A stretch of 64,000 bases of DNA from Heptranchias perlo (GCF_035084215.1 NC_090349.1:37758001-37822000), one strand, 5' to 3'; shown: positions 2,967 through 18,804, counted from the stretch's first letter. The notes: generated by a model from the sequence alone, not told the origin. Program-made: numbers and translations.

Positions 2967-3087
2967 ACGTACAGACTTCTGATTGTAGTGCTGTCTCTTC
3001 TCTCATTCCCGCTGATAAAATGTTGCGGAAGGCGTAGATACTGTCTGGAAACTAAGCGCCTCGATGGGAAAACTGTTCTCATCACAG
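2967..3087 (+). pseudogene. SDR pseudogene exon 1 (hydrophobic anchor plus KRLDGKTVLITG)
   Basis: (T)YRLLIVVLSLLSFPLIKCCGRRRYCLETKRLDGKTVLITG|gtaagc. The in-frame acaACG at 2967 is the likely former ATG. Confidence 0.8.
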
Positions 3088-3437
3088 GTAAGCAAGAGAT
3101 TTAATTGAAGTTTCTTTACTCCTGGAGGATTAAAGGTCGTTTTCCCCCTCCTTCCTTGTTTCAGATTTCTCGGCTGGCCTCTTCAAGGCATGGCTGTGGG
3201 TATTGGGACTCTGTTACAACTTGTAACATTTCATTGAGAAATGAAACTTCCTAAGAATTTTTACCAAGTTCCCGAAGCAATGATATAATAGCCATTTTTA
3301 TTTTTTTAGAAAAATTCCAAATTGAAACACTGGCGTCAGAGATAAAGGTAATTCATTTGGATCTGTTGACCGTAGGGACCTTGAGTAAAGGATTCAATCA
3401 AAACAAGGACCCTTTGCTTGGTCTCAGTAACGAGGTG

Positions 3438-3862
3438 AAGAAAGACTTGGATTCATATCGCGCTTTTCACGATCTCAGGACGTCCCAAAGTGCTTTACAG
3501 TCAATGAAGTATTTTAGAAGTGTAGTCACTGTTGTAATGTAGGAAACGCGGCAGCCAATTTGCGCACAGCAAGCTCCCACAAACAGCAATTTGATAAAGG
3601 CCCAATAATCTGTTTTAGTGATGTTGGTTGAGGGATAAATATTGGCCAGGACACTGGGGAGGACTCCCCTGCTCTTCTTCGAAATAGTGCCATGGGATCT
3701 TTTACATCCACCTGAGAGGGCAGACGGGGCCTTGGTTTAACATCTCATCCGAAAGACGGCACCTCCAACAATGCAGCACTCCCTCAGTACTGCACTGGAG
3801 TGTCAGCCCAGATTTTATGCTCAAATTTCTGGAGTGGGACAGTGAACCCACAACCGTCTGAT
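3438..3862 (-). mobile_element. DeuSINE (SacSINE1-like), near full length
   Basis: Deu-domain-like core (ggatgagatgttaaacc...aaaagatcccatggcac) and L2-like 3' tail. Confidence 0.85.
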
Positions 3863-3974
3863 TAAGTACCTAAGTGTTTGGGGCAACTTTATGCATAACT
3901 TTTAATTTATTTAACTTTTAATAAAAATGTGGATGTGATGAACCAGTGGAAATGATGTTCTGTGGACAATCAAA

Positions 3975-4222
3975 ACCTTCTTTACTCAGAGAATGGTTGG
4001 AACATGGAACGCACTACCACGTGGAGTAGTTGAGTTGAATGACAAAGATGGATTTAAGGGGAAGCTAGATAAGTACGTAAGGGAAGAAAGGAATAGAAGG
4101 ATATGGTGATAGGGACAGAGGAAGTAGGGTGGGAGGAGGCTTGTGTGGAACACAAACACCGGCACAGACCAGTCGGGCCGAATGGCCTGTTTAAGTGCTG
4201 TAAATTCTATCTAATTATGTAA
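3975..4222 (+). mobile_element. CR1 LINE 3' end
   Basis: FTQRMVGTWNALP-type terminus and the 3' UTR hairpin gggccgaatggcctgttt. Confidence 0.8.
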
Positions 4223-4390
4223 CAAATTACAATGTACACTTTTATTTGAGTCTAATAATCTTTGCTGTTATATTTTTTTCTAAATTAATTCCTGTAATTT
4301 AAGAATGAGAAAAAAAAAGCTAATAATAAAAATGTGTTTAAATAAGAGTTCTTCATGTAGAGAATAATGTTTCAGAACAACACTTTACAG

Positions 4391-4392
<2 letters not shown>

Positions 4393-4420
<28 letters not shown>
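4393..4420. repeat. (GT)n microsatellite
   Basis: About 14 GT units. Confidence 0.95.
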
Positions 4421-15749: not shown

Positions 15750-16480
15750 GTAACTGTCTTAACAGTGGCTCTGTAATTTGAGCTTTTGTCCCTTGTGATC
15801 CAGAAGCTGTACCTTTTTCATATTCTATTTTTGCAGTGGTGTGTATTTGAGGGGCTAATAATCCCGCTGTTATAATTTGTTTACCGATGTAAAGCAGTCT
15901 TTCACATCCTATCACATTCTCTTCAAAATGGTGCATAGTACCAAACAGTGATTTACTGACTAAAACAACTAATATTTTATTTAACAAATAAATAGGAATA
16001 TGAGGTGCAAAATCGAAAATTATAATACATCAAAATAGCCACTTAATTGGTCAGTTACTCTTTGTAAGACTGCAAAATCTGTGTTGAAGTAAATGAAGAG
16101 TTCTTTTTATGGCATAGTGAATTCACCCTCTCTTTGTCCTTTCCTGATCAAATGTTCATTCACTCTGAGGGAGGATTTGCTTCCATGAACTCTTCAGTTC
16201 AATCACCAATTTTTGAAAGAACTGTGCTATTTCAAAATTCCAGCTCTTAAACTCTTGAATTGTTAAAAATACCACTTCTGTTAACCTCTTGATGGAGAGG
16301 TTCCAGGACAAACAACTTTGTACTTGTATCCAATTAACAACAGTAAACAGATGTCATGAATGCACTGGTGAGTATCCAAGAGATGAATAATTCACACTTC
16401 TGCACATCTAAGACTTCTCAAGGGAACGAATTATTTGAGCAAAAGGCAACACCGATAATTAAATTGAGGAAATGCACAAA
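15750..16480 (-). mobile_element. Possible P-element/THAP9-like transposase C-terminal fossil
   Basis: Minus-strand fragments QIIRSLEKS/LRCAE, EVNRSGIFNNSRV and MHHFEENVIGCE...KQII...IHTTAK in the expected order. Confidence 0.35.
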
Positions 16481-16814
16481 TTTGGTCTTCTGATTACAAA
16501 CAATCTTATCTTATAAGTGAAACGAGCAATTCAAACTTTGCTTCTTTCTGAAAGCAAGATGGGTTAATGTTTTTGTCTGGATGAAGGGCACCAGCTGGAA
16601 AACTGCAGCTCCGATGAAAGGACCCTCCTAAAAGGGGGCAATTATTTCACTTCTAGATGCCGCCTGACCTGTTACATTTTCCATCTTTGTGTCAGCTCTT
16701 CATTTATCTTCATTGTACTCATATCTCCATTTTGGTCAAAGTGACAGTTCAGTCTTTAATGTACCTACATTTGTAGGATCTGTAATCTTGAATTCTTGTG
16801 TATGTTCTCCAGAG

Positions 16815-17112
16815 GAATTAGTTTGTGTGCCACTTTGAGGATGGTTTTGCCACGTGTTTTGGTGTGAATCACCTAGGCCACTTTCTGCTCACCAACCTTC
16901 TGCTTGACTGCCTGAAGGAATCTGCCCCAAATCGTGTGTAAATGTTTCTTCAGACATCTACAAGATAGCAAAAATGGACTTCACCAGATTCAGAAAAGCC
17001 TCAAGTCTGCTTGCCTCTTACAGCAGCAGTAAGTTGGCAAACATTCTGTTTACCAAAGAACTGTCACGTCGAATGGAAGGAACTGGCATTACCACATTTT
17101 CTCAGAACCCAG
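16815..17112 (+). pseudogene. SDR pseudogene exon 3 (catalytic)
   Basis: GISLC / [34 protein letters not shown] / NVSSDIYK...ASYSSSKLANILFTKELSRRMEGTGITTFSQNPG|gtaaat. One-nt loss at about 16939; the 5' boundary is uncertain. Confidence 0.88.
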
Positions 17113-17564
17113 GTAAATCAGACTTTCCATGATGGCTTTGGATCAGAGTATGGTTTCTGTGCTCTTTCTCACTTGCTCTCATGCCCTCTCTGTCTCACCC
17201 TACATTTAATTCTCTCTTAGCCTATAAGAGAAGTATATGCCATACTGACTGGAGAATCACGGACTCAATAGCTAGTTTGTGCCATATTAGCTGATTTTAT
17301 GTGGGACTGTGGTTGAGGGAGAAAAAACAGCTTCTGATTGCCATCCAGTGAATCCTGTTGAACGTATATGTCAAGAGAGGATCAAACTCCACTGTGACGC
17401 TCTCAGTAATGAAATAGCCCGTCTCCTCTCAGATGAAAAATGGCCATTGGAAAAAGGCAGCAGAAAGCTACTGGTACCTGTGGAACTTTATTGCAGCAAA
17501 AGTGAGCACTTTCAGGAGAAAGGGGAGAGTATCATCCTAATTGGGCAAAAAGAAAGAGTGTTGT

Positions 17565-17860
17565 GGGGACTGGCTTGCAGGTTGGATCAATGCACTCATT
17601 CATCTCTAGGACCTGGATTTGAATGTAGCCCAGTTTAATGGACAATAATCTCTTTCTGCTAGCTGTAAGGGTTGTACATGAAATGCATTTGAGGTGGTTC
17701 AATCCTGCTCTTTGTGGGCAAGAACTCTTGGCAGAAAAATGGCTTCATTTGGCACTAAAGCATGGAATCTGACACCAAGGAGTCAGAAGGGTGTCTTGCC
17801 ACAGTGGAGGGTGACCTTTGGACAGAATAGAGAGAGTTTTGCTTTGTATCTGACTTTAAC
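17565..17860 (+). mobile_element. LF-SINE-like ancient tRNA-derived SINE
   Basis: ggggactgg...ttcatctctagg...tttgaatgtagcccag...tttggcactaa; relatives at about 5790-5960 (-), 26160-26480 (-), 45340-45710 (-), 53180-53370 (-) and 60300-60700 (+). Confidence 0.5.
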
Positions 17861-18555
17861 CCCCCCAGTGGGAATATCTACTTATAACAGTGGGGGAAAA
17901 ATCCCAAGCTCGTTACCTTAGAGATGATTTTTTTTACTCGAGATGAAAGAATCGTAAAATTAATCAGAATTGTTTTTCGATGTTCTGACTTTTGAATGGG
18001 AGACTGTCCATTTGCTGAGTATAAGCCTAAAGGAGCAATTATATTATCACTTTAACATCATTAGGCAATGGGTCACACTCACATTGATAAAAAAAAACAT
18101 ACGCTTCCATTGTCAGGTCCTGACACGTCTCCAGAGGGGGAGTGGCAAAAGATCCCCTGAAGGAGGCAGCCTGAACACTTGGGTTTAACACTGCATGGGG
18201 TGTAACTCGTGCATTATCTAACCGGCTTTAAAAAGTACACCTGGGCTCCCTGGGGAACCGGGAGTACTTTTTAAGCTAACACAGAACTGTGTTAAGTGCC
18301 AAGAGACTGCAGATGCTTCAGTCTAAGCTCTCAAAGTATTGGAGGTTTTAATGACCAAAAGCAGAGCTCTTCATGTGGAGATAAGTGTGCACGTGCAAGA
18401 CTGCTTTCCTGGCCAGGTCAGTATAAACAAAGAAGTATTTGGCTGGACCTATTCTGTAGTTACTTGCTTCCTATGCATAATTTCAACTAACGCTTGGCTG
18501 ATCTTTTTTTTCTAAGTTTTGATGTAGATTTATCTGGAATTCATTCTTATTTTAG

Positions 18556-18804
18556 GTTATGCCTTTACCAATCTGTTGACCAACCAATATTTCCTGACCC
18601 GGATGGTTTTGTTCCCCCATCATGTACCTGTTCTTCATTTCGAGTGAAGCAGATCCACTGCGCATATCCGATGAAGTACTGCCATACTATGGTGGATTCT
18701 TCAGTAATTGTTGACCGATGGAGCTCTGATGTCATGCAATGGGCACCAGTGTAGCCAAGAGACTGTGGGCGACCAGTGAACAACTAGTTGGACAAAAAGC
18801 ATAA
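18556..18804 (+). pseudogene. SDR pseudogene exon 4 (C-terminal)
   Basis: ttttag|GYAFTNLLTNQYFLTRMVLFP / IMYLFFISSEA / IHCA / SDEVLPYYGGFFSNC*PMEL*CHAMGTSVAKRLWATSEQLVGQKA*. Confidence 0.8.

What the first reader, a model, noticed from the sequence alone, without database searches (positions are those of the whole stretch)
2967..18804. Dead retinol-dehydrogenase/DHRS13-like gene beside the crystallin pair: candidate unitary gene loss and lost ohnolog
Seen: four exons with mostly intact splice sites encode a full SDR fold (TGGNSGIG, NNA, VNHLGHF, YSSSK). It carries a probable ATG>ACG change, TGA stops at 12724, 18712 and 18727 (consistent with CGA>TGA decay) and several frameshifts. It retains introns, so it is not a retrocopy. 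Recalled knowledge: human DHRS13 lies near CRYBA1/SEZ6/MYO18A, a region paralogous to CRYBA4/SEZ6L/MYO18B. The single exon from NAG to HPG beginning GISxC resembles DHRS13 more than RDH11/12. Inference: this is a whole-genome-duplication sister of DHRS13 that was lost in this lineage, possibly with relevance to retinoid metabolism.
Basis: partly seen in the sequence, partly recalled or inferred. Interest (0 to 1): 0.7.

Follow-up and report, generated by a model that had tools for sequence, protein, structure and literature searches.

The report
Dead retinal-reductase-like gene in a shark
In this cartilaginous fish (likely a shark), the only detected copy of an enzyme gene that likely acted on vitamin A aldehyde is broken in ten places, while a close relative, a sawshark, chimaeras, bony fish and amphibians keep it intact: a real but fairly ordinary gene loss, in a gene line likely older than vertebrates.

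Summary
The pseudogene is real. Four exons (2967-18804, +) align end to end with an intact 309-aa sawshark protein (77% identity). There are ten lesions: start loss, four TGA stops and five frameshifts. DNA-run contigs carry nine directly or without contradiction; one frameshift differs between contigs of one sample, likely heterozygous. Contigs of a likely RNA run from a ~95%-identical relative are spliced and intact at all nine stop and frameshift sites. No second copy was found in the genome. The gene is not an unknown lost ohnolog. It is the orthologue of si:dkey-174n20.1, an uncharacterised SDR7C gene that databases label RDH11/12/14, kept in chimaera, ray-finned fish and amphibians. Four trees group that lineage with echinoderm or mollusc proteins (bootstrap 88-90), never with DHRS13, though an AU test does not reject a DHRS13 sisterhood (p=0.19). 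Intact DHRS13 shares three intron positions and lies on the paralogous contig, but 1.14 Mb away on the other side of its crystallin pair. No amniote or other elasmobranch orthologue appears in two best-120 lists, hinting at repeated losses. Retinal-reductase function is inferred from family only.

The parts
2967..3087 (+). Exon 1: hydrophobic N-terminus (likely membrane anchor) and strand beta-1; start codon reads ACG
   Evidence: aligns to P0001 residues 1-41 at about 80%
12509..12751 (+). Exon 2: TGGNSGIG motif, Cys-Arg at the end of beta-2, NNA; TGA at 12724; last base T makes a TGA across the splice junction
   Evidence: PF00106; no exon difference in DNA contigs of 4 runs; relative's spliced end is intact at both sites (table 7)
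16815..17112 (+). Exon 3: VNHLG and YSSSK catalytic motif; 4-nt deletion at 16835, 1-nt deletion at 16938
   Evidence: relative's contig carries 4 and 1 extra letters there
18556..18804 (+). Exon 4: +1 at 18614, -14 at 18650, -1 at 18664 (differs between contigs of one sample), TGA at 18712 and 18727; native TAA at 18802-18804
18831..19787 (+). High-copy repeat, probably a LINE fragment, lying in the former 3' UTR; the relative's UTR appears to resume near 19788
   Evidence: depth in the thousands; loose end of the RNA contig at 18829 compared by eye with the window; no Pfam hit, so the LINE label is recalled
24797..31324 (-). Neighbour: beta-A crystallin exons (cryba4 by recalled sequence and arrangement), converging on the pseudogene, stop codons about 6 kb apart; four coding exons seen open
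   Evidence: PF00030; 5' exons not mapped
45944..49250 (+). Neighbour: beta-B crystallin exons (crybb1 by recalled arrangement), head to head with the beta-A gene; ends approximate

Best explanation
This is a dead, single-copy gene, the orthologue of the short-chain reductase gene called si:dkey-174n20.1 in zebrafish nomenclature, broken by ten coding lesions; it likely encoded a membrane-anchored, NADPH-using retinaldehyde reductase and likely belongs to a gene line older than the vertebrate genome duplications. Shown: structure, lesions, orthology, and an intact spliced counterpart in a close relative (about 97%). Inferred (about 85%): selection ended soon after the split from that relative and the exons have since decayed neutrally, by CpG transitions, small deletions and a repeat insertion; at least one deletion is probably still segregating. 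Inferred (about 65%): the lineage split from DHRS13 before vertebrates, sharing an old three-intron layout with it. Inferred from family only (about 60%): the living enzyme reduces all-trans-retinal or a similar lipophilic aldehyde with NADPH, and its loss was tolerated because DHRS13, RDH14 and several RDH11/12/13-type genes remain.
For: Orthology: pseudogene + sawshark 100/99, inside a 100/99 clade with chimaera, fish and amphibian proteins; several carry the name si:dkey-174n20.1. Single copy: the next-best genomic match of P0001 is 50% identical among 29 matches; the exon 3 DNA search gave 2 matches, itself and a 74% 95-nt piece. Relative intact: run X5 contigs join exon 2 to 3 and exon 3 to 4, and lack all five frameshifts and four stops. 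Neutral decay: exon differences 30/575 (5.2%) match intron differences 48/995 (4.8%). Of 23 visible substitutions (of 30), 5 are synonymous and 18 are not; of 14 that the sawshark protein can polarise, 13 fall on the window's side (sign test p=0.0018). Branch 0.19 vs 0.066 for sawshark. Old lineage: grouped with echinoderm and/or mollusc proteins at 90/96, 88/91, SH-aLRT 99, FastTree 0.97; names. A sea-urchin SDR7C gene with three introns shared only with DHRS13 is reported (PMC9859523). Function: SDR7C members are retinaldehyde reductases (PMC3184775), and DHRS13 prefers NADPH (PMC12311135).
Against: The AU test does not reject a clade with DHRS13 (delta lnL 9.5, p=0.19). The invertebrate grouping is below the starred threshold in both careful trees and involves long branches. 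A column count did not favour it (11 columns shared with invertebrates vs 34 with DHRS13). No amphioxus, lamprey or hagfish orthologue was identified. All DNA runs are one sample, so fixation in the species is not shown. X5 is only guessed to be RNA, and its exon 1 and most of exon 2 were not seen. No enzyme assay of any orthologue was found.
Confidence: 0.75

Rival explanations
1. The gene is the whole-genome-duplication ohnolog of DHRS13, now dead in this lineage.
For: Three shared intron positions, DHRS13 having one more. DHRS13 lies on contig C31, which also holds a head-to-head beta-A/beta-B crystallin pair. AU p=0.19.
Against: 0 of 4 trees join them. DHRS13 is 1.14 Mb from the C31 beta-A crystallin and on its 5' side, while this gene is 6 kb from the 3' end of its crystallin. 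No SDR remnant was found in about 75 kb 3' of the C31 crystallin or 40 kb 3' of the C7 one. The shared introns also occur in invertebrates (PMC9859523). Identity of P0001 to DHRS13 (44-46%) equals that to echinoderm proteins (42-46%).
Confidence: 0.2
2. The gene is a duplicate of RDH14 ('rdh14b-a', as catalogued in a tilapia survey) or of RDH11/12, as database names suggest.
For: Database names. PMC8073704 lists tilapia XP_003454190 as rdh14b-a, and the medaka, croaker, gar and Xenopus orthologues as rdh14.
Against: The genome's two-exon RDH14-type gene (C5) and the RDH11/12/13-type genes form a separate branch (90/94; 96/96). Intron patterns differ. Orthologues in gar, chimaera and amphibians rule out a teleost-specific duplicate.
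Confidence: 0.03
3. The lesions are assembly errors or one broken allele of a working gene.
For: One frameshift (18664) is absent from contigs of the same sample; all DNA runs come from one sample.
Against: That same contig keeps the other four frameshifts and the stops at 18712 and 18727. Exon 2 with two stops is identical in 4 of 4 runs. Amino-acid changes are strongly skewed to the window's lineage.
Confidence: 0.02

Closest known systems
si:dkey-174n20.1 orthology group (annotated as RDH11/12/14-like; sawshark UPI00398F5386, tilapia XP_003454190, Xenopus tropicalis XP_004910666)
   Same: Orthologue: 77% identity to the sawshark protein over the full length; same clade at 100/99.
   Different: Here it is a pseudogene with ten lesions. 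No functional study of the group was found.
DHRS13 (SDR7C5)
   Same: SDR7C fold and motifs; three intron positions; paralogous crystallin-bearing contigs.
   Different: DHRS13 has a fourth, phase-0 intron, is intact here (315 aa), forms its own clade, and is not at the matching position beside the crystallin.
RDH11, RDH12, RDH13, RDH14 (SDR7C1-4)
   Same: Same family, about 45-50% identity in matched stretches; NADPH retinaldehyde reductases.
   Different: Seven- or two-exon structures (PMC9859523 Table 1) and a separate branch in the trees.
Unitary pseudogenes (for example human GULO or UOX; recalled)
   Same: Intron-bearing single-copy gene decayed in place, with intact orthologues in relatives.
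   Different: No phenotype or substrate is known for this one.

Membership tests
Unitary pseudogene | Disabling lesions real, not assembly error | tested here: met
   one sample only; ACG not directly displayed
Unitary pseudogene | Intact orthologue in relatives | tested here: met
   sawshark protein; spliced contigs of run X5
Unitary pseudogene | No functional copy elsewhere in the genome | tested here: met
   only the best candidates are scored and the assembly may be incomplete
Unitary pseudogene | Introns retained (not a retrocopy) | tested here: met
   three GT-AG introns; introns 2 and 3 are spliced out in the relative's contigs
Unitary pseudogene | Fixed in the species | not testable with these tools
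   all DNA holders are one sample
SDR7C (RDH11-14/DHRS13) | TGxxxGxG, NNAG, YxxxK and PF00106 | tested here: met
   NNAG is broken by the junction stop in the window
SDR7C (RDH11-14/DHRS13) | NADPH-dependent retinaldehyde reduction | not testable with these tools
   inferred from family; the Arg after beta-2 is kept in sawshark and window; its link to NADP preference is recalled
si:dkey-174n20.1 orthology group | Monophyly with named members | tested here: met
   100/99, 99/100
si:dkey-174n20.1 orthology group | Same position next to cryba4 in other species | not testable with these tools
   no other vertebrate genome could be searched
Ohnolog of DHRS13 | Sister to DHRS13 to the exclusion of invertebrate sequences | tested here: inconclusive
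   not found in 4 of 4 trees, but AU p=0.19
Ohnolog of DHRS13 | Paralogous chromosomes | tested here: met
   crystallin pairs on C28 and C31; one gene family only
Ohnolog of DHRS13 | Matching position within the paralogous block | tested here: not met
   1.14 Mb away on the opposite side; no remnant 3' of the C31 crystallin
RDH14 duplicate | Clade with RDH14 and a two-exon structure | tested here: not met

The most novel reading that the evidence does not exclude
Jawed vertebrates inherited a separate, pre-vertebrate retinal-reductase-like gene line that databases hide under RDH11/12/14 names. It was lost repeatedly and independently (amniotes, rays, most annotated sharks), and this locus catches one loss in the act, between a dead copy with a still-segregating frameshift and a close relative that transcribes it intact. 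That would make it a natural experiment on a dispensable branch of vitamin A metabolism.
Probability: 0.4. Interest if true: 0.55.

Novelty: new member of a known kind. Interest (0 to 1): 0.35.

Why it matters
It is a well-supported gene loss in a slowly evolving group, with a close intact relative that brackets the timing. It also flags an annotation problem: a conserved, unstudied SDR7C gene labelled RDH11, 12 or 14, and treated as an rdh14 duplicate in one survey, is its own lineage. If the absences in amniotes and other elasmobranchs are real, the repeated losses could be set against ecology once the substrate is known. Without a substrate or phenotype it remains an ordinary unitary pseudogene in a redundant family.

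Tried and rejected
Expression in this species: no RNA holder was listed, and same-sample runs X9 and X11 had no contig on exons 3-4; neither blank is evidence. A diagnostic-column count to separate the two origins was uninformative; an apparent C-terminal motif shared with echinoderms did not hold. The GISxC motif is not conserved. The automatic frameshift alignment misplaced the exon 4 indels; positions come. The CpG script used four off-by-one positions; by hand, 8 of 23 substitutions are in CpG context. No absolute date is given, since no shark neutral rate was checked. The solved-structure search gave only distant SDRs. Earlier findings of the scan: nothing in 3 look-ups. Literature searches found no report of this loss or of the gene by its zebrafish name; they cover main texts of open papers only, so supplements of other papers could list it. 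The rdh14 in PMC8834563 lies on chromosome 5L, so it appears to be a different gene. Neighbours beyond the crystallins were not identified.

Full report
Observation. The window holds four exons on the + strand: 2967-3087, 12509-12751, 16815-17112 and 18556-18804, with GT-AG, phase-1 introns. The open part of exon 2 retrieved, as the best of 2 hits among 81 candidates, a 309-aa sawshark (Pristiophorus japonicus) protein, P0001, at 85% identity. The joined exons align to its whole length, with 231 of 300 codons identical. TGGNSGIG, VNHLG and YSSSK are present.

Lesions. Only 18712 is shown to be CGA>TGA; 18727 was Trp. A high-copy repeat of about 0.96 kb begins 27 bases after the stop. The relative's 3' UTR appears to resume behind it (by eye); calling it a LINE is recalled, as Pfam gave no hit.

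Are the lesions real? Contigs of four DNA runs, all one sample and possibly the source of the assembly, cover all exons. Over 12128-14288 two runs show no difference and two differ once, at intronic 13955. Over 15214-18888 one run is identical and three show 4-6 substitutions and one gap. In the run re-laid, the gap is the base missing at 18664; 5 of its 6 substitutions are intronic and one is not displayed. So that frameshift is likely heterozygous, and the other exon 2-4 lesions stand in every run checked. For exon 1 one of two differences is not displayed.

A living relative. Run X5 (organism B; RNA is a guess by the tool) has contigs on exon 3 and exon 4 whose loose ends read the ends of exons 2 and 3, so they are spliced. 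They carry the missing letters at all five frameshifts and sense codons at all four stops. The start codon was not seen. Intron pieces differ at 48 of 995 sites (4.8%) and exon pieces at 30 of 575 (5.2%). Of these 30 I could see 23 (19 listed, 4 read by eye from a loose end): 5 synonymous, 18 not. The sawshark protein polarises 14, of which 13 fall on the window's side (p=0.0018); 4 are unresolved. I infer that selection ended soon after the two lineages split.

Identity. A search with P0001 returned a tight group of 308-309-aa proteins from chimaera, bichir, sturgeon, gar, teleosts and amphibians, named RDH11, 12 or 14 or si:dkey-174n20.1. The pseudogene nests in this group next to sawshark (100/99). 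The host is therefore a cartilaginous fish, likely a shark; its DHRS13 groups with ray proteins. The genome search with P0001 gave 29 matches; apart from this locus none exceeds 50% over a long stretch, and a DNA search found no second copy.

Distribution. In the best 120 of 6255 hits to P0001, the only cartilaginous fish are sawshark (1 entry) and chimaera (3), and nothing but the query exceeds 64% identity, although ray proteomes are in the library. In the best 120 of 814 hits to the axolotl orthologue (cut-off 62% identity), no named amniote, coelacanth or lungfish appears. This hints at further losses but rests on annotation and truncated lists. PMC8073704 (passages and supplement rows seen) lists one rdh14 for chicken and python, and two for Xenopus, gar and coelacanth; I did not test which coelacanth entry is which.

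Relation to DHRS13. G000 has an intact five-exon DHRS13 on contig C31 (315 aa; named by its neighbours in the tree). It shares all three intron positions and has one more. C31 also carries a beta-A/beta-B crystallin pair, but 1.14 Mb away, with DHRS13 on the 5' side; crystallin gene names are recalled. No SDR remnant lies 3' of the C31 or C7 beta-A genes in the stretches searched. Four trees (151 rows FastTree, 50 rows quick and careful, 28 rows careful; rows chosen, with representatives outside 240-420 aa left out) place brittle star, sea cucumber and starfish proteins, in three trees also a mussel protein, with this lineage: 0.97, SH-aLRT 99, 88/91 and 90/96. The 88/91 branch also holds one unnamed protein. 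None joins it to DHRS13. Against this, the AU test does not reject that union (p=0.19) and the column count did not help. PMC9859523 (passages, section 3.3 and table text seen) reports a sea-urchin gene with three introns shared only with DHRS13, so the shared layout can be ancestral. [quoted passage not shown] I put about 65% on a pre-vertebrate split, 20% on ohnology and the rest on unresolved.

Mechanism. The living protein has a hydrophobic N-terminus, a Rossmann motif, an Arg after strand beta-2 and YxxxK. Its relatives reduce retinaldehyde with NADPH (PMC3184775 and PMC12311135, passages seen). I infer the same for this gene, at about 60%; no assay was found. The genome retains DHRS13, an RDH14-type gene and at least four RDH11/12/13-type loci, so redundancy is the simplest reason the loss was tolerated. 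Nothing here ties the loss to vision; being next to a crystallin is not evidence of eye function. PMC11979771 (passages seen) does not mention rdh genes.

Verdict. A real unitary pseudogene of a catalogued but unstudied gene. The ohnolog reading is unsupported but not excluded. I found no report of the loss (listings only, except the papers named). Interest 0.35.

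Noticed in passing
L051 (G000:C2:111150761-111151400): An intronless, stop-bearing copy of the RDH11/12-type gene that lies about 200 kb away on the same contig; likely a processed pseudogene.
   Followed up: partly
P0027, P0042, P0148 (gar, bowfin): The catalytic Tyr of YxxxK reads Phe in the gar and bowfin orthologues, which suggests altered or lost catalysis in holosteans.
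   Followed up: no
P0009, P0053, P0072, P0109, P0111, P0114, P0155 (amphibians): All 7 amphibian orthologues in the alignment lack the Arg after strand beta-2, which may mean a changed cofactor preference.
   Followed up: no
L040-L041 (G000:C31:25266126-25275438): DHRS13 intron 3 has a GC donor; the ORF is intact.
   Followed up: yes
G000:C31:26403071-26414249 (L081, L084): A second head-to-head beta-A/beta-B crystallin pair, mirroring the pair in the window.
   Followed up: partly
G000:C1078:230000-346000 (L055, L056, L065-L071): SDR7C-like exons of another subfamily on an unplaced 535-kb contig, in two stretches about 85 kb apart; one split gene or two copies.
   Followed up: partly
window 1824 and 2885: All four DNA runs read a different base than the assembly at these two non-coding sites: possible assembly errors or alleles.
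   Followed up: no
P0341: A protein in the tilapia cluster carries a ferret label in one source; it looks like a mislabel, not a mammalian orthologue.
   Followed up: no
window 15331-16497: Run X5 also has low-depth contigs on intron 2 sequence: unspliced RNA or DNA in that run.
   Followed up: partly
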